Assembly: GCF_024170505.1 (NCBI RefSeq)
Contig: NZ_JALJYG010000010.1
Coordinates: 39,676 to 71,675 of the forward strand
From: Methanocalculus alkaliphilus
GTDB lineage: Archaea; Halobacteriota; Methanomicrobia; Methanomicrobiales; Methanocorpusculaceae
Reading direction: 5' to 3'
DNA: 32,000 nt
The position numbers and the translations under genes are program-made. Below the pieces are notes generated by a model, which made no database searches, was not told the origin of the DNA, and saw only the letters and a list, made by a program, of their open reading frames with translations. Shown in pieces: positions 2,278 through 28,900 of the stretch (position 1 is its first letter; every line of letters starts with the position of its first letter).

Positions 2278-2354
2278 GTTGCCTTTCCTATCTATTATAC
2301 TCGCATTGGACAGGCTGCACGCTTGACTGTCTCTATATGAGTGGAGGATTGAGA

Positions 2355-3632
2355 ATGGCAGCAGAAAAGCCACACATGAATTTAGCCGTTATCGGCCACA
2401 TTGACCACGGAAAGTCAACTACGGTTGGTCGCCTTCTTTTCGAGACCGGTGCTGTAGCCCAGCACGTTCTTGACTCATTCAAGAAGGAGGCCGAGTCGAA
2501 GGGCAAGGGCTCCTTCGAATTTGCATGGGTTATGGACAGCCTCAAAGAGGAGCGGGACCGTGGTATCACCATCGATATCGCCCACAAGAGGTTCGACACT
2601 CCGAAGTACTACTTCACCGTCGTCGACTGCCCGGGCCACCGTGACTTCGTCAAGAACATGATCACCGGTGCCTCGCAGGCAGATGCAGCAGTACTTGTCG
2701 TCGCTGCACCTGACGGTCCGATGGAGCAGACCAAAGAGCACGTCTTCCTTTCAAGGACCCTCGGTATCACCCAGCTGATCATCGCCGTCAACAAGATGGA
2801 TGCTGTTAAGTACGATGAGAAGCGGTTCAATGAAGTGAAACAGCAGGTCAGCGATCTGATCAAGATGGTCGGATTCAAGGTTGATGAGACGATCTTCATC
2901 CCGATGAGCTCATTTGCCGGTGCCAACATCAAAGAGAAGTCCAAGGATACTCCATGGTACAATGGCCCGACACTTCTTGAGGCACTCGACACGCTCAAAG
3001 AGCCTGAGAAGCCCACCGACAAGCCGCTCCGTCTCCCGATCCAGGATGTCTATACCATCTCCGGTATCGGAACCGTTCCGGTCGGCCGTGTTGAGACCGG
3101 TCTCCTGAAGAAGGGAATGAAGGTCTCGTTCATGCCTGCCAACAAAGAGGGTGAGGTAAAATCCATCGAGATGCACCATGAGGAGCACGCACAGGCAGGA
3201 CCCGGCGACAACGTAGGGTTCAACGTTCGTGGTATCGCAAAGAACGATATCCGCCGTGGAGATGTCTGTGGTCCGGTCGATGCACCACCAACCGTTGCAG
3301 AAGAGTTCACTGCCCAGGTCGTTGTTCTTCAGCACCCAAGTGTCCTCTCAATCGGGTACACCCCGGTCTTCCACTGCCACACAGCCCAGGTTGCCTGTAC
3401 CTTCCTTGAGCTTCAGAAGAAGCTTGACCCACGGAGTGGCCAGGTCAAGGAGGAGAACCCTGCCTTCCTCAAAGCAGGAGATGCTGCTATCGTCAAGATT
3501 GTTCCCACCCGCCCACTCGTCATCGAGAAGGCAAAAGAGCTTCCGCAGCTCGGCCGCTTTGCGGTCCGTGATATGGGATCCACCATCGCTGCAGGTATTG
3601 TCCTCGATATTAAAGCGAAGCAGATGAGATAA
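2355..3632 (+). CDS. tuf: Translation elongation factor EF-1 alpha (aEF1A)
   Basis: The sequence [22 protein letters not shown]...DCPGHRDF...NKMD carries the full GTPase motifs and archaeal EF-1alpha domains II/III. I chose the ATG at 2355 (SD 8 nt upstream) over the track start at 2337. Confidence 0.97.
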
Positions 3633-3658
3633 ACTCTCATCTTTTACGGTGACCCCCT

Positions 3659-3967
3659 ATGCAGAAAGCCAGAATACGCCTGACCGGGACAGATTACGAA
3701 AAAATTGAGACGGTTTGCTCCCGCATCCGTGAGATTGCTGAAAGAACCGGTGTTAATTTAGCAGGTCCGATATCACTCCCGACGAAGCGTCTTATTGTCC
3801 CAATCCGGAAGAGCCCGGATGGAGAAGGGACGGCTACGTGGGATCGCTGGCAGATGCGTGTCCATAAGCGGCTTATCGATATCGATGCCGACGAGCGTGC
3901 ACTCCGTCAGCTGATGCGGATACAGGTGCCCAAGGACATCGGCATTGAGATCGTCCTTGAGGGATGA
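3659..3967 (+). CDS. rps10: 30S ribosomal protein S10
   Basis: The sequence [20 protein letters not shown]...[10 protein letters not shown]...[13 protein letters not shown] is classic archaeal S10. It lies directly after tuf, which is the conserved order. Confidence 0.95.
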
Positions 3968-3985
3968 TCATCGTGAGATAGCGGC

Positions 3986-5596
3986 ATGAAAGCCGCAACG
4001 GATACACCAATTTTTCAGCGGCTCCTTTCACCGGAGTTGCTACTCTTTTACATCATTCTTCTGGCGGGCATCCTTCGGTTTGCCTTTCTGGATCTGAAAC
4101 TCTATCACCATGATGAAACAGTTCATGCATGGTTTGCCTATGAACTCCTGACGAAAGGAACCTATATCTATGATCCAAAATTTCATGGTCCGTTCCTCTT
4201 CTATGTGACGGCGGGGCTTTTTTCCCTCTTTGGAGACTCGGATCTTGTCGGGAGACTGCTTCCTGCATTTCTTGGAACCGCTCTTATAGCACTCGTCTAT
4301 CCGCTCTACCGGATGGAATATCTTGATGCACGGCAGATGCTTGTTGCCGCGGCTTTCCTCGCGCTTTCGCCGGAGATGGTCTATTTTTCGAGGTTCCTCA
4401 GAAACGATATCTTCATCGCCTTCTTCACACTTCTTCTCATCGTCGCTGCGTGTGCGTACTTCAGATATGAAAAACTCAGGTATGCACTGCTGGCCGCTGT
4501 TGCGGCGGCCCTTGGCATGTCAAGTAAAGAGAATATGCCGATCGTCCTTGTGATCCTCGGCTCGTACCTCCTCTTTGCCATCTGGACAAGGCGCCTGGTC
4601 TTTCCGGTCACCTGGCGGCGGGATCTCACTGCTGCGATCCTCCTTGGTGCAGGTATCATCGCCCTCTTTTATTCGTCCTTTGGCTCACATCCCGAGATTG
4701 TCCTCTATGCCGGACAGATGGCGATCTCCCACTGGATGGAGATGCATGGGATTGAACGGCTTGGAGGACCCTGGTACTTTTATTTTGTCTTCCTGGTCCT
4801 CTATGAGGTGCCGATCCTCATTCTGGCCGCACTTGGTATGATCCATTTCATCCTCGGGGGGACGATCATACAACGTATCCGCTCTCTCCGGGAGAAGGGG
4901 GCATCTGATCAGATGCTGCCCCTCGCCCCATCTGCCATACCCGATGAGATCCGATCAATATTCCGCCGCCCCGAGCCCGGCATTACCTATGATCCGAAGA
5001 TGGAGTTCATCCGCTTCTCAATCTGGTGGATGATCACCTCCCTTGCCGTCTATGCATATATTGGTGAGAAGGTACCCTGGCTCATCCTCCATCAGCTCCT
5101 CCCGATGATCTTTGTTGCCACATATATGCTGGATCGGACCAAGATGGTGATCGTCGGCCTTGGCATCATCTTCCTCTTTGGGATGACGATGCATGTTGCA
5201 TTTACCCCGGCAGATATTCCTGAGCCGATTGTCCAGGTGCAGAATTCAGAAGACCTGCGTATTCTGATGGACTGGATCGATGAATCTGATCGTGTCGCCA
5301 TAGCGACTGATATCTACTGGCCGCTTCCCTGGTATTATCGCGGGGATCGGTGGGGGCCGTTCACCCTCTTTGGTGACAGGCCGAATGAAGGATCCCTTCT
5401 GGCCGGCAATTATGATCTCATCATCACCCATGACAGGAACAGCTATGATGCACTCCCCGGATATGAGAAAGTGACACTACGGCACAGCTACTGGGTGACC
5501 TATTACGAGGTGAAGGGGAACCTGGTATGGTATTACTTCACCCGGCAGGTCCCGACCGGGGGTCAGAACTATGATGTCTTCAGGCGGGTGGCATAG
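3986..5596 (+). CDS. Polytopic GT-C/PMT-like membrane protein, TIGR03663 family (Agl23-like, flippase-activity-associated)
   Basis: 536 aa with more than 10 predicted TM helices. The N-terminal region has the family-invariant DE dipeptide (4112-4117, YHHDETVHAW) and HGP tripeptide (4184-4192, KFHGPFLFY). It resembles dolichyl-phosphate-mannose protein mannosyltransferase N-termini. Confidence 0.7.
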   Translation: MKAATDTPIFQRLLSPELLLFYIILLAGILRFAFLDLKLYHHDETVHAWFAYELLTKGTYIYDPKFHGPFLFYVTAGLFSLFGDSDLVGRLLPAFLGTALIALVYPLYRMEYLDARQMLVAAAFLALSPEMVYFSRFLRNDIFIAFFTLLLIVAACAYFRYEKLRYALLAAVAAALGMSSKENMPIVLVILGSYLLFAIWTRRLVFPVTWRRDLTAAILLGAGIIALFYSSFGSHPEIVLYAGQMAISHWMEMHGIERLGGPWYFYFVFLVLYEVPILILAALGMIHFILGGTIIQRIRSLREKGASDQMLPLAPSAIPDEIRSIFRRPEPGITYDPKMEFIRFSIWWMITSLAVYAYIGEKVPWLILHQLLPMIFVATYMLDRTKMVIVGLGIIFLFGMTMHVAFTPADIPEPIVQVQNSEDLRILMDWIDESDRVAIATDIYWPLPWYYRGDRWGPFTLFGDRPNEGSLLAGNYDLIITHDRNSYDALPGYEKVTLRHSYWVTYYEVKGNLVWYYFTRQVPTGGQNYDVFRRVA

Positions 5597-5995: not shown

Positions 5996-7093
5996 CTATC
6001 CAAGTTCATCCCAGGCACGCCGCTTCTTTATAACAACGAATCCGATCACTCCGATGATCGCACCCCCGACGATGATCCAGAGGAACGGCTTGCCCGGATC
6101 AACAACGGCGGGGAGAGATTCAATATCCTCTCTCAGATCACGTGCTTCCTGAAGCACTCTCTCCCCATCCGCTACTGCATCCCGTGCCTGGGTCTGGGCC
6201 CGTGCATAATTTCCGGTCTCGTATGAGTCTTTTGCCGTATCAACAAGATTTTTGATACTCTGCCGCTTGGAGGTGAGCAGGATGACACGGGAGTCGCTTG
6301 CTCTTCCTCGTTCATTTGAGAGATAGTCGATGATACCATCGATCTCGGCAACGTATCCTTCTGCTTTGCTGATAGAGTGCTGGACGATCGTCTGTTCGAG
6401 GAGAGTCTCTGCCTCTGCGATCTGTGTCTGTGCAGCGTTCAAATGTGTCTGTGCAGTTGCAACATTCGCTCCGGCGGCCTCCGCACTCTCAAGGGAGACT
6501 TTTGCAGCATTATATTTTGTATCAATATTTGCAGTATCAACCCCGTCGTCATGAGCATTGTCGATAGCTGTTTTTAATACCTGCAAATCTGACTTTGCTG
6601 AGACAATTCTGGTTTGTACTTCTGCCGGATTAATGACCGTTCTGGTTACGAGGAACTCTTCCCGAACATTATCAGAAGAACCGAGCTGGCGAATTCGAAT
6701 AATGGATTTATCCCCGGTTGTCGATACTTCCGGCACTGTTCCTTCAAGGTTGACACGAACACTCACATCGAACGGGTAATTAAGCTCCCAACCCGATATT
6801 CTTGTTGTCCTGAAACCTGTCGGTTGACGTGGATTATCGATCCCATCAAGAACAATTGTATAGGTCCACCGTGGAGAGTCGAGATCTGTAAAGAGCTGTA
6901 AGGAATTATCATCCGGGATGGTAGTTCCATCTGTATGTTTAAAGCTGACAGTTGTATCGATGGTCAGTTTCGTTCCGGGTGCCAGATCTCCAGTTGGTAT
7001 GCCTGATGGCGGCTGAACCGTAAAGGCAGAAACCGATACGGCACAGAGTGCCAGGAAGGCGATAAGTATCAGTAATAATCGTCCTTTTTTCAT
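5996..7093 (-). CDS. Exported coiled-coil protein with a C-terminal membrane anchor, function unknown, in an operon with cetZ
   Basis: Signal peptide MKKGRLLLILIAFLALCAVSVSA (7025-7093). About 140 aa of beta-rich domain follows, then an Ala/Gln/Glu-rich helical region (about 6104-6601). The C-terminal TM is PFLWIIVGGAIIGVIGFVVI (6029-6088), followed by a 10-aa tail KKRRAWDELG. The SD GAGGAG overlaps the cetZ stop, with a 9-nt gap. Confidence 0.8.
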   Translation of the reverse strand: MKKGRLLLILIAFLALCAVSVSAFTVQPPSGIPTGDLAPGTKLTIDTTVSFKHTDGTTIPDDNSLQLFTDLDSPRWTYTIVLDGIDNPRQPTGFRTTRISGWELNYPFDVSVRVNLEGTVPEVSTTGDKSIIRIRQLGSSDNVREEFLVTRTVINPAEVQTRIVSAKSDLQVLKTAIDNAHDDGVDTANIDTKYNAAKVSLESAEAAGANVATAQTHLNAAQTQIAEAETLLEQTIVQHSISKAEGYVAEIDGIIDYLSNERGRASDSRVILLTSKRQSIKNLVDTAKDSYETGNYARAQTQARDAVADGERVLQEARDLREDIESLPAVVDPGKPFLWIIVGGAIIGVIGFVVIKKRRAWDELG

Positions 7094-7102
7094 ATTTTCT
7101 CC

Positions 7103-8263
7103 TCACTCAAAGAGCGGATCAATGGCATCTTCAAACATCGTCGACTGCCGCTCCTTGGATCTGATGACGTCCTGTTTTGTCTCTTTTGCTACTTCAAGCA
7201 GTTCGGTGATCCGGGGGGCATTCCCGATCGTGGCGAGGACGACGACAGCTGCGATGTATGTCGAATCGACAGGATAGTCGCCGCCTCTCACCTCAACCCC
7301 TGCAATGTTCTCTTCGACCCATGACTTTGACTTCTCAACACCTTTTCTGTCAAGTTCATCGGGTGGTCCGGCAACCAGAACGAGCGCACGTTCGGCGGTT
7401 GTGTAGTCACAGGGAAGGGTCAGGCGGCCGAGCATGGCTCTTCGTATAAGTCCGATGATCTTCGCGGACTTATCCTCTCCGGTAAGGAGATTCTCTCCCT
7501 TATCCTTCCGGGTAAATGCTGAGAAGATACTCTTCTTGGGTTTGCTCTTTGTGATCACATCAGAGATTGCATAGCCGATGGTTGAGATGCCACCGCCCCT
7601 GAGGGTGTTGATGATCTCAGACGAATCCACGACCATCTCACCAACACCCAGCTTTCCAACCTCTCCCGCACGGAAGAGAACTCCGAACCGGCGGACCAGC
7701 TCTTCATTCAGACGCTCATATGCGCTCTTGACGCTCTCCCCTTCGTTCTTCCACGCACTGTTATCGAAGATGAAGGTGTTGTCAGCTTCATTGACAAGGG
7801 TGGCAAGACTGCGGGCGGCATTATACGAGTAGAGTCGCCCTTCTTCGGGGGCTGGAATCATTCCGAGGGCATAGACCGGTTCCCTGTAGATGCGTTTCAG
7901 GTGGCGGCAGAGCACCGGGGTTCCCCCGGATCCCGTTCCACCGCCCAGGCCGGCGACGACGACGAAAGCATCGATATCATGGGTTCCTCTGGTGTCGATC
8001 GCATTGATGATGGTGTCGATCTCGTCCGCTGCGATCTTGGCACCGGTCACATTATCGGTCCCCACACCGTGCCCTTTAACCACAGTCTGGCCGATAAGGA
8101 GACGGTCTTTCATATCGATGTGTTTCAGGCCCATCAGGTCGGTTCGTGCCGTATTTACGGCAATACCACGGAAACTGCCATACTGGAGTTTCCGATCCAT
8201 GGCAAGGAACATATCAACGATCTTCCCCCCGGCCTGTCCGAATCCGATGAAAAATACTCGCAT
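7103..8263 (-). CDS. cetZ: Tubulin/FtsZ-superfamily GTPase, CetZ type
   Basis: The sequence MRVFFIGFGQAGGKIV...VVVAGLGGGTGSGGTPVL carries the tubulin signature. The downstream NAARSLATLVNEADNTFIFDNSA region is typical of archaeal CetZ rather than FtsZ1/2. Confidence 0.85.
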   Translation of the reverse strand: MRVFFIGFGQAGGKIVDMFLAMDRKLQYGSFRGIAVNTARTDLMGLKHIDMKDRLLIGQTVVKGHGVGTDNVTGAKIAADEIDTIINAIDTRGTHDIDAFVVVAGLGGGTGSGGTPVLCRHLKRIYREPVYALGMIPAPEEGRLYSYNAARSLATLVNEADNTFIFDNSAWKNEGESVKSAYERLNEELVRRFGVLFRAGEVGKLGVGEMVVDSSEIINTLRGGGISTIGYAISDVITKSKPKKSIFSAFTRKDKGENLLTGEDKSAKIIGLIRRAMLGRLTLPCDYTTAERALVLVAGPPDELDRKGVEKSKSWVEENIAGVEVRGGDYPVDSTYIAAVVVLATIGNAPRITELLEVAKETKQDVIRSKERQSTMFEDAIDPLFE

Positions 8264-8384: not shown

Positions 8385-9614
8385 ATGCATATCTGCGTAA
8401 TCGGTGGAGGACTCACCGGCCTTTCGGCGGCACTACGGCTCTCCGGAGATCATACGGTGACTGTTCTTGAGATGGATGAAGAGCCCGGGGGGTGCCTCTC
8501 ATCCTATCGGCTCCCTGATTACGCGATCGAGTCGCTGTACCATCACTGCTTCTCCGGGGATCGGCATCTGCTCTCTCTTATAGATGAGCTTGGTCTTACT
8601 GACCGACTCGAATGGCTGAAAGGGAGTACCGGATACATGGTCGGAGGGAGGATCTCACCGCTCACTACTCCGTTTGAAATTCTTCGCTACCCTCATCTCT
8701 CTCTCTTTGAGAAGATCCGGCTCGGTCTCTTTGTTCTTGGATCAAAGAATACGGATTACAAAAGCCTTGATGAGATCCCGGCAGAGAGATTCATCCGGGA
8801 AAAACTGGGTGATCAGATCTATCGTTCCTTCTTTGAGCCGCTCCTCAGGTCAAAATTTGGAGAGAGGCGTTCGGAGGTCTCCGCTGCCTGGCTGATGAGC
8901 AGGATAGCAATCCGATCTGATCGTGGATCAGAGGGTGAACGGCTCGGCTATCTTCAAAATGGGTTTGCAGAGCTCATCGATGCTCTCCTCCTGAGGCTGG
9001 ATGAGATGGGCTGCATGGTGCAGACAGGCCACCGGGTCTCCTCTCTTGAGGCAACAGAAAATGGATGGCTGGTGGATGGTGAGAGGTATGACTGCGTCAT
9101 ATCAACCCTTTCTCCACAGGAGACGGGGCGTCTCTCCTCTCTTCCCCTTTCACCTCTTCCATACCAGGGGTCTGCCTGCCTCACCCTTGCAACATCCTCC
9201 GATCCGACGGAGGGGATCTACTGGGTGAATATCGGAGATTCTGCCCCCTATGGTGCCGTGATTACGCATACAAACCTGGTACCGTTTGAGAGATATGGAG
9301 AGCATATTGTCTACATCGCATCCTACTTCTCAGGAGACCCTCCGGCAGATTGTGAGGAGCTCTTCCTCTCGGACTTCTGCTCCCGCTTCTCGGTTCCGAG
9401 ATCCTCGATCCATTGGCACCGCCTCCGCATCGAGCAGTATGCAGGCCCCGTCTATCTGACCGGATATCGTTCAATGATACCAGATCAGAATCCTGCCCCT
9501 GGTCTCTTCATTGCAGGGATGTTTTCGTTTGAGAATTATCCGGAACGAAGTATGGATGGATCCGTTGCAGCGGGCGAGGCGGTTGCCCAATCTGTTATGG
9601 GGTGGTTGTCATGA
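8385..9614 (+). CDS. FAD/NAD(P)-dependent oxidoreductase (amine-oxidase / phytoene-desaturase / protoporphyrinogen-oxidase-like fold)
   Basis: The N-terminal dinucleotide-binding motif is MHICVIGGGLTGLSAALRLS...VLEMDEEPGG. It is 409 aa long and is the first gene of a 4-gene overlapping module. Confidence 0.75.
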   Translation: MHICVIGGGLTGLSAALRLSGDHTVTVLEMDEEPGGCLSSYRLPDYAIESLYHHCFSGDRHLLSLIDELGLTDRLEWLKGSTGYMVGGRISPLTTPFEILRYPHLSLFEKIRLGLFVLGSKNTDYKSLDEIPAERFIREKLGDQIYRSFFEPLLRSKFGERRSEVSAAWLMSRIAIRSDRGSEGERLGYLQNGFAELIDALLLRLDEMGCMVQTGHRVSSLEATENGWLVDGERYDCVISTLSPQETGRLSSLPLSPLPYQGSACLTLATSSDPTEGIYWVNIGDSAPYGAVITHTNLVPFERYGEHIVYIASYFSGDPPADCEELFLSDFCSRFSVPRSSIHWHRLRIEQYAGPVYLTGYRSMIPDQNPAPGLFIAGMFSFENYPERSMDGSVAAGEAVAQSVMGWLS

Positions 9615-10321
9615 TGGAGGTATCAGCGGTCATTCCCGTGTTTAATGACAGAAAGGCACTTGAAAGAGCAATTCCTGAATCTATCCGGCGACTTGAGGAG
9701 ATCACCGGATCATTTGAGCTTCTCATTGCCGAAGACGGCTCCAATGACGGGAGTGCTGAATATGTCCGTTCATGGGAAGAGCGCGATCCCCGTGTCCGCC
9801 TCCTTCATGCCGATGAACGGCTCGGACGTGGCCGTGCGCTGAATCGTGCGTTTGCGGAGTCACAAGGAAAAATCTTCTGCTATTATGATGTTGATCTTGC
9901 AACCGATATGGTACATCTTGCCGATCTCATTGGTGCCATCCGTGATGGCTGTGCTATCGCAACCGGATCCCGACTGATGCCGGATTCGGCAATCGATCGG
10001 GGCCATGGGCGTGAGATTGCAAGCAGAGGGTATAACGCCCTTGTCCGTTTCTTCCTGGGAAGCCGCCTCTATGATCATCAGTGCGGCTTCAAGGCATTCT
10101 CCCGGGATCTCCTCACCTCCCTCCTCCCCGCTGTCCAGGCACCACACTGGTTCTGGGACACCGAGATCCTTGTGCTTGCAGAGCGTGCAGGGTACCGTGT
10201 CTGCGAGTTCCCCGTTGTCTGGAGGCAGGGTGAGCAGACAACAGTGAAATTCTCCGATGTAACCGGAATGGGATCAGACATCCTGAAACTCTGGTGGCGC
10301 CTCCATGCTTCGAAAGATTAG
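9611..10321 (+). CDS. Family-2 glycosyltransferase, polyprenyl/dolichyl-phosphate hexose synthase-like (DPM1/ArnC-like)
   Basis: VIPVFND...LIAEDGSNDGS...YYDVDL...HQCGFKAF are GT-A/GT2 DxD and acceptor motifs. The ATG at 9611 overlaps the upstream TGA (ATGA). The track start is GTG at 9602. Confidence 0.8.
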   Translation: MMEVSAVIPVFNDRKALERAIPESIRRLEEITGSFELLIAEDGSNDGSAEYVRSWEERDPRVRLLHADERLGRGRALNRAFAESQGKIFCYYDVDLATDMVHLADLIGAIRDGCAIATGSRLMPDSAIDRGHGREIASRGYNALVRFFLGSRLYDHQCGFKAFSRDLLTSLLPAVQAPHWFWDTEILVLAERAGYRVCEFPVVWRQGEQTTVKFSDVTGMGSDILKLWWRLHASKD

Positions 10322-11276
10322 TACCGTCATTCTTTCAACGCTCCTTGCGGCTGGATTAATCATTTTTCTCCTCTCCCGTGTATGGGATGAACTTCTCATC
10401 ACGCTCCATGAAGCAGATCTCCGGTTTCTCCTTCTTGCAACTCTCATCTGCCTTGCTGCCTGGTACCTTCGGGGCTGCCGGTACCGGTTCATCCTCTCCC
10501 GACTCTCAATAGCAGTCGGGGCCATCTTCTCGACAGCCTGTATCTTTGTCTCCCAGACGGCAAATCTGATCATCCCGGCACGGCTGGGGGATCTCATCAG
10601 ACTTCTGATCCTCAGGCATGAGAAGGGGACGACCTACTCGACCGGTCTCTCCTCCCTCATCGTTGAGCGTGTCTTTGATATCATCACCATCGCCCTTATC
10701 GGTGCAATTGCGCTTCCGTTCGTCGTCACCCAGGCGACATGGTTTTCAACGCTCATCGGTGTTACACTGCTTGGAGGGCTTCTCTTCATCATGGTTCTCC
10801 TCTTCTCCGGAAGATTCTCTTCGGAGAACCGTATTTTTGGAAAGATTCTGAAGATCCTGGATGAGATCCGCACCGTCTCAGGAACCACATCTGCCCTCGC
10901 GATTCTTTCAGTCTCATCCATTGCCATCTGGATCATCGACTGTATCATCTGTGCGATGGTTGCGATGATGTTTGGAGAAGTGGTACCCTTTCAGGTGATC
11001 GTTTTAGCCATTGTCATCGGCAACCTCGTCAAGGCTGTTCCGATTACCCCGGGCGGTGTTGGTACCTATGAGCTTGCTCTTGCCCTGACATTTGAGCTTG
11101 CCGGGGTTACACCGGGAACGGCGGTTCTTATTGCCATCATCGATCATCTCATCAAGAATCTGGTGACGCTTGCAGGCGGGGTCGTTTCCATCTACTACTT
11201 TGGGGAATGGACGCTTGCATTATTGAAGCGGGCATACTCAGGGGATATCAGGGGAGAGATCAATGGTCGGAGCTGA
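10305..11276 (+). CDS. Flippase-like membrane protein (UPF0104 / LPG_synthase_TM domain, as in the MprF N-terminal flippase)
   Basis: 323 aa with about 8 TM helices. It carries the motifs PARLGDLIRLLIL and VPITPGGVGTYELAL characteristic of this family. It overlaps the GT2 stop by 17 nt. Confidence 0.7.
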   Translation: MLRKISTVILSTLLAAGLIIFLLSRVWDELLITLHEADLRFLLLATLICLAAWYLRGCRYRFILSRLSIAVGAIFSTACIFVSQTANLIIPARLGDLIRLLILRHEKGTTYSTGLSSLIVERVFDIITIALIGAIALPFVVTQATWFSTLIGVTLLGGLLFIMVLLFSGRFSSENRIFGKILKILDEIRTVSGTTSALAILSVSSIAIWIIDCIICAMVAMMFGEVVPFQVIVLAIVIGNLVKAVPITPGGVGTYELALALTFELAGVTPGTAVLIAIIDHLIKNLVTLAGGVVSIYYFGEWTLALLKRAYSGDIRGEINGRS

Positions 11277-13263
11277 AGCCCAGGTACTGACGGTCATCCT
11301 CTGGCTCATTGCCCTGAAAATACTTCAGATATCGATCTATCCCCTCCTCCGACCCACCCTTGGCGAGATCGCCTACCCGCTCTCTTATCCCCTCTCACTC
11401 CTTGCATTTACCCTCTTCTCATGGTATGCAGGTCTGCTCCATCTTCCGGTACAGCTTGCGGCATTGTTCTTTCTTCTCCTCGGGTCTGTCATGCTCATCC
11501 GTAAGGAGTATGTGCCAGAGGATCTGAAGCGAAATCTCAGATGGGATGCGGTCTTCCTTGCCGGATTCCTCTATCTCCTTGAGATCCGGTTCTTCAATCC
11601 ATCGATCTCGTTTGCTGAGAAGTTCATGGACCACGCCTTCCTCGCCTCGGTGATGAGAAACCCGGTGGTTCCGCCTCCTGACCCCTGGTTTGCGGGGGGG
11701 GATCTCTCCATCTACTATTATCTTGGTCACTGGATGGCCGGGGCACTTGGTATCACAATTGGCGGAGAGTCGGTTGTCGTCTTTAACCTGATGCTCCCGA
11801 CCGTCGCAGGTATGGCGGTCGTGGCTGCAGCGGCTCTTGGGTATCTCCTGATCCCGCGATACTTCTACCTTCCTGCCGCCGTCCTTCTGATCCCAAACCC
11901 TGCTGCGGTCTGGCATCTGATCGCCGGCACCCCCGTTGATGTACTCCCCTGGGAGAGCACCCGTGTCATCACCGGGACAATCACTGAATATCCTCTCTTC
12001 TCCTTCTTCTGGGGTGATCCTCACGCCCATATCCTCGGTATCTTCAATCAGATACTCTTCATCACCCTCTGTATGGTCCTCTATCTCGGATATGGCGACC
12101 TCTCTCTTCGATCCCGTTATGTTCTTGCTCTCCTTCTGGCCCTCTCTCTTGGTACCATGCCGGGGGTGAACTCCTGGGATGTCCTCCTCTATGCTCCCTT
12201 CTACTGCCTGATCGCACTCCTGACCGGCATCCGGTATGCAGGGTGGGATCTCCGGGGGTGGCTGCCGCTCCTTTCTGTCCCTCCCCTCTCCATCCTTCTG
12301 TATGCGCCATTTCTGGCTGCGATTGAGGGGGCAGGAATTCTTGGGGTGGGTATTGTGCCAGAGGGGAGCAGCCTCGTGGAATTCATCCTGGTGCACGGAT
12401 TTTTCCTTGCCATCTTTCTTATGTATGGGTTGAAGGATCTGAGCCGGTATCCCTGGCTCCTGGCGCTCCCCCTCCTCGGCCTTCTCACCGGATATGGGGC
12501 GGCAGGTCTTGCCGGCATGGTACTCCTGCTCCTTGCGGTACGGCGATCCGGCCGGCCGGAAGAGATCCTCGGGATGGCAGGCCTTGCTGTCATCATCTTC
12601 TGTGAACTCATCTATCTGAAGGATAACATGGGGGAGTTCTACTACCGGATGAATACCGTCTTTAAGTTCTCGATGGTCGCCTGGGTGATGATGGGGCTTT
12701 CAACAACTATCATCATCGGCAGGTGGCTCTCCCGGCAGACATGGCCATGCGCCCTTCCACCATGGGCTGTCCGTTCTGCTCTGGCAGCAGGCATCCTGTT
12801 CCTGATTGTGATCCCCCCGTTTACCCCGCTCACCTATGGATATGCCACGCAGACCCTCGATGGATCAGCATGGCTTCAGGAAGCGCATCCGGGCGATGCA
12901 GCGGCGATCACGTATCTCCGTTCCCTTGACGGGGATCTCCGTATCATTGAGGCTGTCGGGGAGGGGTACTCCTATGCAGGGCGGATCTCCTCGTTTACAG
13001 GGATCCCGACGATCCTTGGATGGCAGGGTCATGAACTGGTATGGCGGAGTAATGAAGATGGATGGTATGGCAGGCGGATCGCCGATGTCCGCTCTATCTA
13101 TCAGGATCCTGGGCGATCCCTTCCTCTCCTTGAAGAGTATGGTATTACGCACCTCATCGTCGGACCACTTGAGAATGAACGATACAGGGTTCATCTCCCG
13201 GATGAAGGGCTTATTCTTGTCTTTGAAGCGGATGGGACATTGGTCTATGAGGTCGCTCCCTGA
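11263..13263 (+). CDS. Large polytopic membrane protein, DUF2298 / TIGR03662 'Chlor_Arch_YYY' family (putative GT-C-like)
   Basis: 666 aa and highly hydrophobic, with a soluble C-terminal domain. The diagnostic YYYxG motif is present (SIYYYLGHW, YYY = 11713-11721), as is EKFMDHAF. It overlaps the upstream stop by 14 nt. Confidence 0.75.
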   Translation: MVGAEAQVLTVILWLIALKILQISIYPLLRPTLGEIAYPLSYPLSLLAFTLFSWYAGLLHLPVQLAALFFLLLGSVMLIRKEYVPEDLKRNLRWDAVFLAGFLYLLEIRFFNPSISFAEKFMDHAFLASVMRNPVVPPPDPWFAGGDLSIYYYLGHWMAGALGITIGGESVVVFNLMLPTVAGMAVVAAAALGYLLIPRYFYLPAAVLLIPNPAAVWHLIAGTPVDVLPWESTRVITGTITEYPLFSFFWGDPHAHILGIFNQILFITLCMVLYLGYGDLSLRSRYVLALLLALSLGTMPGVNSWDVLLYAPFYCLIALLTGIRYAGWDLRGWLPLLSVPPLSILLYAPFLAAIEGAGILGVGIVPEGSSLVEFILVHGFFLAIFLMYGLKDLSRYPWLLALPLLGLLTGYGAAGLAGMVLLLLAVRRSGRPEEILGMAGLAVIIFCELIYLKDNMGEFYYRMNTVFKFSMVAWVMMGLSTTIIIGRWLSRQTWPCALPPWAVRSALAAGILFLIVIPPFTPLTYGYATQTLDGSAWLQEAHPGDAAAITYLRSLDGDLRIIEAVGEGYSYAGRISSFTGIPTILGWQGHELVWRSNEDGWYGRRIADVRSIYQDPGRSLPLLEEYGITHLIVGPLENERYRVHLPDEGLILVFEADGTLVYEVAP

Positions 13264-13307: not shown

Positions 13308-13333
13308 GGTTACGCCAGCATCGGTTCCTGAAC

Positions 13334-13377
13334 CGCTGATGAGTGATGAGGGAGGATATTCCTCCTGAATGAGGTGA
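13334..13377 (+). promoter_or_regulatory. 5'-UTR kink-turn element (box C/D-like, probably double), candidate L7Ae autoregulatory site that sequesters the SD
   Basis: CUGAUGA (13336-13342) and GUGAUGA (13343-13349) are followed by a perfect hairpin, GGAGGA 13351-13356 / UCCUCC 13360-13365. CUGA (13365-13368) and AUGA (13369-13372) follow the hairpin. The hand fold gives two nested tandem G.A/A.G pairs, each with a 3-nt GAU bulge. The outer stem pairs with the GGUGA SD (13373-13377). Confidence 0.6.
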
Positions 13378-13380
13378 GTT

Positions 13381-13749
13381 ATGTCAAAGATGTACCAGAA
13401 ATTTGAGGTTCCCGAAGAACTTCAGAATAGTGCGCTTGAAGCGCTCGAGCTTGCACGTGATACCGGAAAGATCAAGAAAGGATCAAACGAGGCAACAAAA
13501 TCTGTGGAACGCGGCATCGCCCAGCTTGTGCTGGTCGGCGGAGATGTCGAGCCGGAAGAGATTGTGATGCACCTCCCCCCGCTCTGCATGGAGAAAGAGA
13601 TTCCATTCATCTTCATTACCAAACAGTCCGAGATCGGTGCCGCTTGTGGTCTTGATGTCGGATCAGCAGCAGTTGCAATCGTTAAATCCGGAAAAGCCAA
13701 GGATCTCGTTGAAGAGATTGTAACAAAAGTTACTGCACTGAGAGGCTGA
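13381..13749 (+). CDS. rpl7ae: 50S ribosomal protein L7Ae (kink-turn binding; also an sRNP/RNase P component)
   Basis: The sequence ...[57 protein letters not shown]... is a canonical L7Ae. Confidence 0.95.
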
Positions 13750-28826: not shown

Positions 28827-28900
28827 GGGCTTGTGGTCTAGCTGGTCATGACGTCGCCCTTACACGGCGAAGATCTCCGGTTCGAATCCGGACAGGCCCA
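28827..28900 (+). tRNA. tRNA-Val (anticodon UAC)
   Basis: Hand-folded cloverleaf. Acceptor GGGCUUG/CAGGCCC with discriminator A. D arm GUC-UAGCUGGUCAU-GAC. Anticodon stem UCGCC/GGCGA with loop CU-UAC-AC. T arm UCCGG-UUCGAAU-CCGGA. No encoded CCA and no intron. Confidence 0.9.

What the first reader, a model, noticed from the sequence alone, without database searches (positions are those of the whole stretch)
8385..13263. Translationally coupled four-gene membrane module of unknown function: FAD-oxidoreductase, GT2, MprF-flippase-like and 'YYY' (DUF2298/TIGR03662-like)
Seen in the sequence:
- Four same-strand genes are chained by start/stop overlaps: ATGA at 9611-9614, a 17-nt overlap at 10305-10321, and a 14-nt overlap at 11263-11276. 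This argues for fixed-stoichiometry co-expression.
- The parts are a Rossmann FAD oxidoreductase, a DPM1/ArnC-like GT2 that should charge a polyprenyl phosphate with a sugar on the cytoplasmic face, and a UPF0104 protein homologous to the flippase half of MprF.
- The fourth is a 666-aa polytopic protein carrying the diagnostic YYYLG motif (11713-11724) of the Chlor_Arch_YYY family.

As far as I know, the YYY family's function is listed as unknown.

Inference: the layout mirrors the bacterial ArnC / ArnE-F / ArnT logic of lipid-linked sugar synthesis, flipping and outer-face GT-C transfer. It may therefore be a self-contained, AglB-independent outer-face glycosylation or lipid-modification pathway. 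The oxidoreductase could tailor the carrier or the sugar.

The family's usual genomic partner (TIGR03663-like) lies only 2.8 kb upstream.
Basis: partly seen in the sequence, partly recalled or inferred. Interest (0 to 1): 0.72.

Follow-up and report, generated by a model that had tools for sequence, protein, structure and literature searches.

The report
Four-gene outer-face sugar-transfer operon in a methanogen
A methanogen operon most likely loads a sugar onto a lipid carrier, flips it across the membrane and attaches it to a surface target, using an uncharacterised enzyme family plus a flavoprotein partner that recurs in archaea and bacteria.

Summary
Four + strand genes at 8385-13263 overlap exactly as described, and all family assignments pass curated cut-offs. 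The organism is Methanocalculus alkaliphilus.

The Arn/Gtr-like interpretation is supported computationally:
- The 666-aa YYY/DUF2298 protein models confidently. Its only significant solved-structure matches are GT-C glycosyltransferases (STT3, DPY19, AftA, AglB, PglB).
- A profile alignment to the PMT_2/Agl23 family places invariant D123 (EKFMD) on their catalytic "DE" Asp.
- The GT2 is closest to ArnC, Dol-P-Man synthase and GtrB.
- The UPF0104 protein is the domain fused to GT2 in AglD.

The gene set is conserved in order, with overlaps, in 80 Methanomicrobiales loci. It also recurs, shuffled or fused, in Methanosarcinaceae and in Chloroflexota. GtrA replaces UPF0104 in one archaeon.

New here: the flavoprotein (NCBIfam PRK07233, phytoene-desaturase/PPOX-like fold) is a recurrent partner. 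It abuts the synthase or the flippase-like gene in archaea, Chloroflexota, Proteobacteria and an actinomycete.

Sugar, acceptor, the flavoprotein's reaction and AglB-independence remain unknown. I found no paper on DUF2298 or PRK07233 function.

Verdict: a new variant of the known three-component glycosylation scheme.

The parts
8385..9614 (+). FAD-dependent oxidoreductase (409 aa, no TM segment), NCBIfam PRK07233 family. Phytoene-desaturase/protoporphyrinogen-oxidase-like fold.
   Evidence: PF01593 1.8e-29; PRK07233 434.7 bits against cut-off 252; HpnE, PPOX and CrtI models all below cut-off. AF2 pLDDT 84.7; best PDB match rice phytoene desaturase 5mog, TM 0.78, then PPOX 0.74-0.76. No hydrophobic segment.
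9611..10321 (+). Short soluble GT2 glycosyltransferase (236 aa). DxD motif 'DVD' at 9887-9895. Candidate dolichyl/polyprenyl-phosphate hexose synthase.
   Evidence: PF00535 7e-24. Best solved relatives: ArnC 2.4e-13, Pyrococcus Dol-P-Man synthase 9e-11, GtrB 2.5e-5. Weak hit to haloarchaeal dolichyl-phosphate hexose transferase NF041391, 41.5 bits against 375. No TM. Motif read.
10305..11276 (+). UPF0104 / LPG_synthase_TM membrane protein (323 aa, about 8 TM). Homologue of the MprF flippase domain and of the C-terminal domain of AglD.
   Evidence: PF03706 5.7e-54; TIGR00374 103 bits against 43. Fused to an orthologous GT2 (54% identity) in L088 and in 13 metagenome loci. PMC5898192 for the AglD relationship.
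11263..13263 (+). YYY / DUF2298 protein (666 aa, about 14-16 TM, plus a 146-aa acidic C-terminal domain). GT-C-fold candidate glycosyltransferase.
   Evidence: TIGR03662 532.6 bits; PF10060 1e-99. AF2 + Foldseek. hhalign to the Agl23/PMT_2 family. Rough topology.
11617..11631 (+). EKFMD motif (E119-D123) in the predicted first outward loop of the GT-C core. D123 is the candidate catalytic Asp.
   Evidence: Invariant or nearly invariant in A1 and A5. D123 aligns with D43 of the invariant DE of the Agl23-like family. Translation.
11713..11727 (+). YYYLG signature motif of TIGR03662.
   Evidence: YYY and G are invariant in the broad alignment A5.
12013..12030 (+). GDPHAH motif (D252, H254, H256) in a predicted outward loop.
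12646..12666 (+). RMNTVFK motif, the most conserved stretch of the family. Predicted at the outer end of a late TM helix.
9611..9614 (+). ATGA start/stop overlap between FADox and GT2.
   Evidence: Overlap conserved in 65 of 70 relatives.
10305..10321 (+). 17-nt overlap between GT2 and UPF0104.
   Evidence: The same 17-nt overlap occurs in 68 of 72 relatives.
11263..11276 (+). 14-nt overlap between UPF0104 and YYY.
   Evidence: Overlap in 59 of 67 relatives.
3986..5596 (+). Agl23-like PMT_2 / TIGR03663 membrane protein (536 aa). Fifth member of the conserved neighbourhood, separated here by CetZ and a 365-aa gene on the other strand.
   Evidence: TIGR03663 427.5 bits against 126; PMT_2 8e-16. 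Adjacent to YYY in 27 of 49 well-flanked metagenome loci and in L087, L089 and L173.

Best explanation
The four genes form one operon encoding a lipid-carrier-dependent glycosylation system that acts on the outer face of the cytoplasmic membrane. It is a 'three-component' system with a fourth, flavoprotein component.

Proposed steps:
1. On the cytoplasmic face, the short soluble GT2 transfers a hexose from a nucleotide sugar to dolichyl (polyprenyl) phosphate. It probably docks on the UPF0104 protein, to which it is fused in other lineages.
2. The PRK07233-type flavoprotein modifies this lipid-linked donor before export. It either oxidises a sugar hydroxyl, as DprE1 does, or changes the saturation of the isoprenoid carrier.
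3. The UPF0104 protein, a homologue of the MprF flippase domain, moves the charged carrier to the outer leaflet.
4. The YYY/DUF2298 protein is a GT-C-fold enzyme whose conserved acidic and histidine motifs (EKFMD, DPW, YYY, GDPHAH, RMNT) and C-terminal domain face outward. It transfers the sugar to an external acceptor. The acceptor is most likely a surface (S-layer or sheath) protein or its glycan.

The Agl23-like PMT_2 protein 2.8 kb upstream belongs to the same functional neighbourhood, as a second user or translocator of the same donor.

Shown: gene structure, family membership, fold, and conservation of the neighbourhood.
Inferred: every catalytic step, the topology, the sugar and the acceptor.
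For: Gene structure and families.

GT2: its closest solved relatives are all polyprenyl-phosphate glycosyltransferases, namely ArnC, Pyrococcus DPMS and GtrB.

YYY:
- Confident model.
- All 12 significant PDB matches are GT-C enzymes.
- Profile-profile match to the TIGR03663/PMT_2 family at E 6.6e-5. This aligns D123 to their DE Asp and 'DPWFAGG' to their 'DPxFHGP'.
- The conserved motifs fall in loops predicted to face outward.

Neighbourhood:
- Same order in every sufficiently long locus of 80 Methanomicrobiales loci, with conserved overlaps.
- GT2-UPF0104 fusion directly beside YYY in Methanosarcinaceae L088, in L087 and in 13 metagenome loci.
- YYY + GT2 + GtrA, with GtrA in place of UPF0104, in L086.
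- YYY-PMT_2-UPF0104-FADox in eight loci. The one tested (L117) has Dehalococcoidia/Chloroflexota relatives.
- All five families within 11 kb in L173.
- 44 of 49 well-flanked loci carry at least one partner.

Flavoprotein:
- Bacterial PRK07233 members (510-548 bits) sit between an epimerase and GtrA in UbiA/DprE1-like/DprE2-like clusters in Agrobacterium, Burkholderia and a Rhodobacteraceae strain.
- In Embleya it overlaps a GT2 that follows a DegT aminotransferase.

Literature:
- UPF0104 is the C-terminal domain of AglD and was predicted to be a glycosylation flippase (PMC5898192).
- Agl23 is linked to use or flipping of hexose-P-dolichol (PMC11182771, citing Lu 2020).
Against: - No biochemical or genetic data exist for any DUF2298 or PRK07233 member.
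- The GT2 is below every curated equivalog cut-off. It lacks the C-terminal membrane helices of ArnC, GtrB and PfDPMS.
- Flippase activity of UPF0104 is demonstrated only for MprF with phospholipids.
- Some YYY genes stand alone (ANME-2c).
- Within Methanomicrobiales the flanking CetZ, L7Ae and MarC genes are equally syntenic. That data set alone therefore does not prove linkage.
- The flavoprotein's nearest structures act on carotenoids and porphyrinogens, not sugars. Its reaction is a guess.
Confidence: 0.6

Rival explanations
1. Membrane-glycolipid pathway, as in GpgSDF or HexSDF. The GT2 glycosylates an archaeol-based membrane lipid, and UPF0104 flips that finished glycolipid. YYY elongates or remodels glycolipid head groups outside, or has a separate role.
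For: Bacterial UPF0104 genes partner with glycolipid synthases (GpgSDF, PMC12713373). PplT/UPF0104 is proposed as a general lipid translocator (bioRxiv 10.1101/2022.03.11.483950). NCBIfam gives a weak hit to the GlcN-PG flippase. Own knowledge: Methanomicrobiales are rich in glycolipids.
Against: The GT2's closest solved relatives are polyprenyl-phosphate transferases, not diacylglycerol or archaeol glycosyltransferases. Known glycolipid systems use GT4-type synthases and no GT-C partner. A GT-C enzyme needs a lipid-phosphate-sugar donor. GtrA, a polyprenyl-P-sugar-associated protein, replaces UPF0104 in L086.
Confidence: 0.15
2. YYY, like the Agl23-type protein, is not a transferase. It is a translocator or scramblase for lipid-linked sugars built on a degenerate GT-C scaffold. 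The transfer step is done elsewhere.
For: NCBIfam names TIGR03663 'flippase activity-associated'. Purified Har. hispanica Agl23 flipped M5GN2-PP-Dol in liposomes and rescued yeast rft1 deletion (PMC11182771). YYY is homologous to that family.
Against: The module already contains a dedicated flippase-like protein. YYY keeps invariant acidic and histidine motifs in outward loops, plus a conserved external C-terminal domain. These are typical of catalytic GT-C enzymes. TPR-fused multi-copy forms resemble protein-acceptor GT-C enzymes.
Confidence: 0.12
3. The flavoprotein is an unrelated housekeeping enzyme that merely shares the operon. Pipelines label it protoporphyrinogen oxidase, or it could be a carotenoid or hydroxyarchaeol-type isoprenoid enzyme.
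For: JGI annotation reads 'protoporphyrinogen oxidase'. The best folds are PDS and PPOX. A Methanosarcina phytoene-desaturase homologue makes hydroxyarchaeol (Mori 2015, cited in PMC10821996).
Against: PPOX, CrtI and HpnE models score far below their cut-offs. The gene abuts or overlaps a polyprenyl-P-sugar synthase or a flippase-like gene in four phyla. The ATGA overlap with the GT2 is conserved in 65 of 70 relatives.
Confidence: 0.08
4. The adjacency is only inherited synteny, with no shared function.
For: Within Methanomicrobiales the unrelated neighbours CetZ, L7Ae and MarC are just as conserved in position.
Against: The same families recur together in different orders, orientations and fusions in Methanosarcinaceae, in other unassigned archaeal contigs and in Chloroflexota, where the flanking genes differ.
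Confidence: 0.03

Closest known systems
Haloferax volcanii AglD / AglR / AglS (final mannose of the S-layer N-glycan)
   Same: A GT2 charges dolichyl phosphate with a hexose. The UPF0104 domain is physically attached to that GT2 in AglD. A polytopic PMT-like enzyme (AglS) transfers the sugar outside the cell (PMC5898192; PMC4973528).
   Different: Here GT2 and UPF0104 are separate, overlapping genes. The outer transferase is a DUF2298 protein rather than AglS; the only NCBIfam model it matched was TIGR03662. A flavoprotein is added. It is unknown whether the acceptor is an N-glycan.
Haloarcula hispanica Agl22 / Agl23
   Same: A short soluble GT2 makes hexose-P-dolichol. A TIGR03663 PMT_2 protein is needed to use or flip it. 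The window encodes a true TIGR03663 member.
   Different: The window GT2 scores only 41.5 bits against the haloarchaeal dolichyl-phosphate hexose transferase model (cut-off 375). No YYY, UPF0104 or flavoprotein component has been described for Agl22/23.
Bacterial three-component systems: GtrA/GtrB/Gtr*, ArnC/ArnEF/ArnT, CsbB/GtcA/YfhO, and the pentofuranose systems of PMC11127046
   Same: The logic is identical: a polyprenyl-P-sugar synthase, a flippase and a GT-C transferase. The GT2 is homologous to ArnC and GtrB. One YYY locus uses GtrA itself.
   Different: The flippase candidate is the MprF-type UPF0104, not GtrA or an SMR protein. The GT-C belongs to an unstudied family. The GT2 lacks membrane helices. 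A PRK07233 flavoprotein is a regular fourth member.
Mycobacterial DPA pathway (UbiA-type DPPRS, DprE1/DprE2, Rv3789, AftA/Emb)
   Same: A lipid-linked sugar is redox-tailored by a flavoenzyme before use by GT-C enzymes. AftA gives the best TM-score to YYY (0.43). Proteobacterial PRK07233 genes lie inside DPA-like clusters.
   Different: DprE1 is a VAO-type (FAD_binding_4) flavoprotein, unrelated in fold to the amine-oxidase/PDS-type protein here. No partner reductase is present in the archaeal operon. The synthase is a GT2, not UbiA.
MprF
   Same: The UPF0104 / LPG_synthase_TM domain is shared.
   Different: There is no aminoacyl-PG synthase (DUF2156) domain. The full MprF model scores 15.8 bits against 600.

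Membership tests
TIGR03662 Chlor_Arch_YYY / Pfam DUF2298 | Full-length HMM match above the curated cut-off | tested here: met
   TIGR03662 532.6 bits against 300.25, covering residues 8-664. PF10060 335 bits against 27.8.
TIGR03662 Chlor_Arch_YYY / Pfam DUF2298 | YYYxG motif | tested here: met
   YYYLG at residues 151-155. Invariant in alignments A1 and A5.
GT-C fold glycosyltransferases | Polytopic membrane protein (8 or more TM helices), often with an extracytoplasmic C-terminal domain | tested here: met
   About 14-16 hydrophobic helices plus a 146-aa acidic C-terminal alpha/beta domain. Based on the AF2 secondary structure and hydropathy. Orientation is inferred from positive-inside loops only.
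GT-C fold glycosyltransferases | Structural similarity to solved GT-C enzymes | tested here: met
GT-C fold glycosyltransferases | Conserved acidic residue in the first extracytoplasmic loop after the core TM1 | tested here: met
   D123 of EKFMD is nearly invariant family-wide. It aligns to D43 of the invariant DE in the TIGR03663/PMT_2 alignment (hhalign E 6.6e-5, probability 64%). The catalytic role itself is not testable here.
GT-C fold glycosyltransferases | Uses a lipid-phosphate-linked sugar donor | not testable with these tools
   Genomic context only: a GT2 of the polyprenyl-P type plus a flippase-like gene lie adjacent in many lineages.
Three-component Gtr/Arn-type glycosylation systems | Polyprenyl-phosphate glycosyltransferase of family GT2 | tested here: inconclusive
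   Homologous to ArnC, DPMS and GtrB, with a DxD motif present. It is below every equivalog cut-off and has no membrane helices.
Three-component Gtr/Arn-type glycosylation systems | Small GtrA- or SMR-type flippase | tested here: not met
   No GtrA or SMR gene lies in the operon. The position is taken by a UPF0104 protein. GtrA does occupy it in L086.
AglD-type GT2-UPF0104 proteins | GT2 catalytic domain joined to a UPF0104 membrane domain | tested here: met
   The two are split here into overlapping genes. The L088 fusion carries a GT2 domain 54% identical to the window GT2 and a UPF0104 domain 42-48% identical. There are 13 further fusions. AglD itself could not be compared because its sequence is not held.
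TIGR03663 (Agl23) | HMM above cut-off, with the invariant DE and HGP motifs near the N-terminus | tested here: met
   The gene at 3986-5596 scores 427.5 bits against 126.25. D43 and E44 are invariant and the HGP region is conserved in A2.
NCBIfam PRK07233 flavoproteins | Full-length HMM match above cut-off | tested here: met
   434.7 bits against 252. Bacterial cluster members score 510-548 bits. The family carries no functional name.
Protoporphyrinogen oxidase / phytoene desaturase / HpnE | Equivalog HMM above cut-off | tested here: not met
   HpnE 88 bits against 283. PPOX 34.6 against 97.85. CrtI family 25 against 238. Phytoene desaturase 32 against 569. Only the fold is shared.
MprF | Flippase domain plus an aminoacyl-PG synthase domain | tested here: not met
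   Only the LPG_synthase_TM domain is present. The bifunctional MprF model scores 15.8 bits against 600.

The most novel reading that the evidence does not exclude
The PRK07233 flavoprotein is a previously unrecognised, obligatory fourth component of a widespread class of outer-face glycosylation systems. It chemically marks the lipid-linked monosaccharide before export. One option is a DprE1-like oxidation or epimerisation of the sugar by an unrelated flavoenzyme fold. The other is pathway-specific saturation or desaturation of the carrier's alpha-isoprene unit. DUF2298 would then be a new GT-C family, dedicated to this modified donor, that glycosylates surface proteins in S-layer-bounded archaea and Chloroflexota.
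Probability: 0.3. Interest if true: 0.8.

Novelty: new variant of a known kind. Interest (0 to 1): 0.62.

Why it matters
DUF2298/YYY is a large family. A profile search found 7,305 clusters at the 50% identity level, including multi-copy proteins of 2,000-2,700 aa. I found no published function for it.

Placing it in the GT-C superfamily gives a concrete, testable enzymology. It comes with a named candidate catalytic residue, a defined donor-supply pair (GT2 + UPF0104) and a recurrent flavoprotein partner. The organisms concerned are methanogens, ANME relatives and Dehalococcoidia, whose envelopes are poorly understood.

The analysis also gives the nameless PRK07233 family its first functional context, polyprenyl-phosphate-sugar pathways in four phyla. 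The lineage-independent pairing of UPF0104 with polyprenyl-P-sugar synthases bears on the open question of what flips lipid-linked monosaccharides.

Tried and rejected
- Sequence searches of YYY, alone and as a broad profile, against PDB chains found nothing meaningful. The hits were NDH subunit 3 and triosephosphate isomerase at E > 0.04.
- The genome-contig scan returned only Methanomicrobiales. That showed order-wide synteny but could not separate linkage from inheritance. Distant homologues from the representative search and a metagenome scan were needed.
- My interim conclusion that the flavoprotein was a Methanomicrobiales-specific add-on (after) was wrong. Searches overturned it.
- The homologue search with the window flavoprotein gave only close relatives with generic names.
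- The UDP-galactopyranose-mutase idea for the flavoprotein was set aside. There is no TIGR00031 hit. UGM ranks only 49th structurally. The bacterial clusters already start from a furanose.
- The idea that it is the general archaeal dolichol alpha-reductase was set aside. The family is confined to these clusters rather than universal. A pathway-specific carrier modification remains possible.
- The AglS and Agl22/23 primary papers are not held, so AglS family membership could not be checked directly.
- Literature searches for DUF2298 and PRK07233 found no functional study.
- The Halarchaeum plasmid hit runs over the record origin and gave no usable context.
- An Rfam search of the L7Ae leader found nothing.

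Full report
OBSERVATION

The window comes from Methanocalculus alkaliphilus; the YYY protein is 100% identical to P0001. Four + strand ORFs occupy 8385-9614, 9611-10321 (an in-frame GTG also exists at 9602), 10305-11276 and 11263-13263.

ATGA lies at 9611-9614, a 17-nt overlap at 10305-10321 and a 14-nt overlap at 11263-11276.

The family assignments are also right, and all pass curated cut-offs:
- Amino_oxidase, and NCBIfam PRK07233 ('hypothetical protein').
- Glycos_transf_2.
- LPG_synthase_TM / TIGR00374.
- DUF2298 / TIGR03662.

YYYLG is encoded at 11713-11727. The TIGR03663-type gene lies at 3986-5596. NCBIfam now calls that family 'flippase activity-associated protein Agl23'.

Between it and the module, on the other strand, lie a CetZ tubulin gene and a 365-aa gene. 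Downstream is ribosomal protein L7Ae.

THE YYY PROTEIN IS A GT-C-FOLD PROTEIN

No PDB chain matches it by sequence, either alone or as a family profile.

An AlphaFold model built on 27 homologues is confident, with pLDDT 88.6 and pTM 0.91. Against 350,542 PDB chains, the twelve matches with E < 0.01 are all GT-C enzymes:
- STT3 of yeast and human OST.
- The C-mannosyltransferase DPY19.
- Mycobacterial AftA, which gives the best TM-score, 0.43.
- Archaeal AglB and bacterial PglB.

A profile-profile comparison helps. I compared the YYY alignment with an alignment of 14 Agl23-like/PMT_2 proteins taken from the related loci. It gives E 6.6e-5 (probability 64%) over YYY 84-357 against Agl23-like 6-235. 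It superposes three pairs:
- YYY D123, in the invariant EKFMD, on D43 of the invariant 'DE' that defines PMT-type enzymes.
- YYY 'DPWFAGG' on their 'DPxFHGP'.
- The YYY motif on the start of the following helix.

Across a much broader alignment (29-41% identity) the residues that stay fixed are EK.xD, DPW, YYYxG, an Asn, E242, GD.H.H, RMNTVFK and a C-terminal W..HE..WR block.

A rough positive-inside analysis places the KR-rich loops 81-93 and 427-431 inside. It places every one of these motifs, and the 146-aa acidic C-terminal domain, outside. The topology is inference, not measurement.

THE OTHER THREE PROTEINS

GT2. It is 236 aa, has no membrane segment and has a DVD motif. Its best solved relatives are ArnC, Pyrococcus dolichyl-phosphate mannose synthase and GtrB. 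All three load a sugar onto a polyprenyl phosphate. It also weakly matches the haloarchaeal 'dolichyl-phosphate hexose transferase' model, far below cut-off.

UPF0104. This protein is the MprF flippase-domain family. Makarova, Galperin and Koonin showed that the same domain forms the C-terminal half of Haloferax AglD. They predicted that the family flips lipid-linked sugars in archaeal glycosylation (PMC5898192).

Flavoprotein. It has no membrane segment. Its model (pLDDT 84.7) is closest to plant phytoene desaturase (TM 0.78) and to protoporphyrinogen oxidases (0.74-0.76). These are membrane-associated enzymes of hydrophobic substrates. It fails the HpnE, PPOX and CrtI equivalog models by wide margins.

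NEIGHBOURHOOD

In 80 loci from eight or more Methanomicrobiales genera, the order FADox-GT2-UPF0104-YYY is present wherever the contig is long enough. The overlaps persist: 65 of 70, 72 of 72 and 59 of 67. CetZ, L7Ae and MarC are just as syntenic there, so this alone proves little.

Distant YYY homologues settle the question. The family is large, with 7,305 clusters at 50% identity.
- A Methanosarcinaceae contig has a single GT2-UPF0104 fusion protein directly upstream of YYY. Its GT2 half is 54% identical to the window's.
- Another archaeal contig has Agl23-like, then YYY, then a convergent GT2-UPF0104 fusion.
- A third has YYY, a 317-aa ArnC/PgfS-like GT2 and a GtrA-family protein in place of UPF0104. 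This is non-orthologous displacement by the classic flippase candidate of three-component systems.
- Others have YYY followed by two PMT_2 genes.
- ANME-2c has YYY alone.
- A Pseudobutyrivibrio plasmid has it inside a polysaccharide locus.

I then made a systematic scan of metagenome contigs with a distant YYY profile, scored with my own HMMs. Among 49 loci with at least 6 kb of non-YYY flank:
- 27 carry an Agl23-like gene.
- 22 carry UPF0104.
- 18 carry a GT2.
- 13 carry a PRK07233-type flavoprotein.
- 44 carry at least one of these.

Thirteen GT2-UPF0104 fusions were seen across all 80 loci. Orders differ between loci. Examples are fusion-YYY-UPF0104, FADox-GT2-YYY, FADox-YYY and YYY-Agl23like-UPF0104-FADox.

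The last arrangement belongs to Chloroflexota. The L117 flavoprotein's named relatives are Dehalococcoidia or Chloroflexota. A 160-kb Dehalococcoidia contig carries DUF2298, DUF2298, PMT_2, LPG_synthase_TM, a 235-aa GT2, a second LPG_synthase_TM and the flavoprotein, all within 11 kb.

Five families therefore form one shuffled, fusion-prone neighbourhood across two domains of life. That is strong comparative evidence for a shared pathway.

THE FLAVOPROTEIN IS A REGULAR PARTNER

In the metagenome loci, the flavoprotein gene always lies within 4 kb of YYY. In most it abuts or overlaps UPF0104, the GT2 or YYY itself.

Bacterial members of the same NCBIfam family score 510-548 bits, higher than the window protein. 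In Agrobacterium, Burkholderia and a Rhodobacteraceae plasmid they sit in one conserved cluster:
- a HAD-UbiA prenyl-phosphate phosphoribosyltransferase-like gene;
- a FAD_binding_4 (DprE1-like) gene;
- an SDR (DprE2-like) gene;
- an NAD-epimerase;
- the flavoprotein;
- GtrA, whose start overlaps the flavoprotein's stop.

This layout matches the decaprenyl-phospho-arabinose type of donor pathway described in PMC11127046. In the actinomycete Embleya the flavoprotein overlaps a 325-aa GT2 that follows a DegT aminotransferase.

The common denominator in four phyla is a polyprenyl-phosphate-monosaccharide plus a flippase-like protein.

I therefore propose that the enzyme acts on the lipid-linked donor before export. 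Two readings remain open.
- It oxidises the sugar, in a DprE1-like role. The pairing with an extra NAD-dependent epimerase/reductase in Proteobacteria, and with an aminotransferase in Embleya, favours this.
- It alters the isoprenoid carrier. Its PDS/PPOX/HpnE-like fold favours this, as does its occurrence with different sugars.

It is unlikely to be the general archaeal dolichol reductase, because it is confined to these clusters.

MECHANISM, AND WHAT IS KNOWN

The best-supported model has three steps: GT2-catalysed charging of dolichyl phosphate, flipping by UPF0104, and outer-face transfer by YYY. The flavoprotein tailors the donor. The Agl23-like protein is a second user or translocator.

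The scheme itself is known from several systems:
- Gtr, Arn and CsbB/GtcA/YfhO.
- The mycobacterial DPA pathway.
- Haloferax AglD/AglR/AglS.
- Haloarcula Agl22/Agl23 (PMC11127046, PMC5898192, PMC11182771).

Three things differ here. The transferase family has no studied member. The flippase candidate is the MprF-type domain. A fourth, flavoprotein component is conserved.

TPR-fused, multi-copy YYY proteins occur. From my own knowledge, TMTC-type protein O-mannosyltransferases combine a GT-C domain with TPRs. On that basis I lean towards a protein acceptor. This is a weak inference.

'AglB-independent' cannot be judged from the window.

RIVALS

- A membrane-glycolipid pathway of the GpgSDF type (PMC12713373).
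- A scramblase role for YYY, by analogy with the activity reported for Agl23 (PMC11182771).
- An unrelated housekeeping role for the flavoprotein.
- Mere synteny.

The first two are not excluded. The last is contradicted by the cross-phylum data.

VERDICT

The analysis adds three things:
- A fold-level assignment of DUF2298 to the GT-C superfamily, with a candidate catalytic Asp.
- Rosetta-stone fusions and GtrA displacement that tie GT2, UPF0104 and YYY together.
- A first functional context for PRK07233.

No experiment exists, so the sugar, the acceptor and the flavin chemistry remain unknown. I rate it a new variant of a known kind, of moderate to high interest.

Noticed in passing
window 13330-13383 (leader of the L7Ae gene, which starts at 13381): Conserved motif CTGATGAGTGATGA-GGAGG-loop-CCTCC-TGAATGAGGTGAGTT-ATG. 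It has C-box/D-box-like GA elements flanking a short stem. It is nearly invariant in 10 Methanomicrobiales loci, with changes on both sides of the stem. There is no Rfam match. It looks like a K-turn in the mRNA leader of the K-turn-binding protein L7Ae itself; autoregulation of this kind is known from the literature (my own knowledge).
   Followed up: partly
window 2337-5596: The Agl23-like membrane protein gene starts 19 nt after the ribosomal protein S10 gene (3659-3967), which follows EF-1alpha (2337-3632) on the same strand. A glycosylation-related gene therefore appears attached to a core translation gene cluster.
   Followed up: no
window 5996-8263, minus strand: CetZ tubulin (7103-8263) and a 365-aa protein (5996-7093) always travel together. 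The 365-aa protein has a pilin-like hydrophobic N-terminus and weak Pilin_N, ResB and PgrA hits. The pair lies between the Agl23-like gene and the module in all Methanomicrobiales loci. A cell-shape protein thus sits next to envelope glycosylation genes.
   Followed up: partly
L090, L124, L125, L134, L153, L161 and proteins P0150-P0172: Giant proteins of 1,400-2,700 aa fuse an Agl23-like PMT_2 domain with two or more YYY domains, and in L090 also TPR repeats. They are often followed by further YYY and PMT_2 genes. L090 is bacterial by its gene content; the taxa of the others were not determined.
   Followed up: partly
L091 1443-7622, L092 1500-7739, L175 2433-8600: Proteobacterial plasmids carry a conserved HAD-UbiA / DprE1-like / DprE2-like / epimerase / PRK07233 flavoprotein / GtrA cluster. 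It is flanked by large 'hypothetical' membrane-size proteins with no Pfam match. It looks like an undescribed lipid-linked pentofuranose donor pathway with two redox pairs.
   Followed up: partly
L006, L013, L019, L050, L059 (a second GT2 after YYY); L069 12029-14068 (a second YYY): Some lineages, including Methanocorpusculum (L013, L019, L050), add a paralogous GT2 (42-50% identity) directly after YYY. One contig (L069, annotated only as Methanobacteriota) has a tandem YYY paralogue (40% identity).
   Followed up: no
L083/L084 12000-13235: In ANME-2c the stand-alone YYY gene has a geranylgeranyl-reductase-like flavoprotein 2 kb downstream, in place of the PRK07233 type. This may be coincidence.
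   Followed up: no
window 11419-12396, minus strand: A 325-aa antisense ORF lies inside the YYY gene. It has no family match and a charged, low-complexity translation. It is most likely a composition artefact opposite a hydrophobic coding region.
   Followed up: no
window 28827-28900: A single tRNA gene. It is the only Rfam match above gathering score in the window.
   Followed up: no
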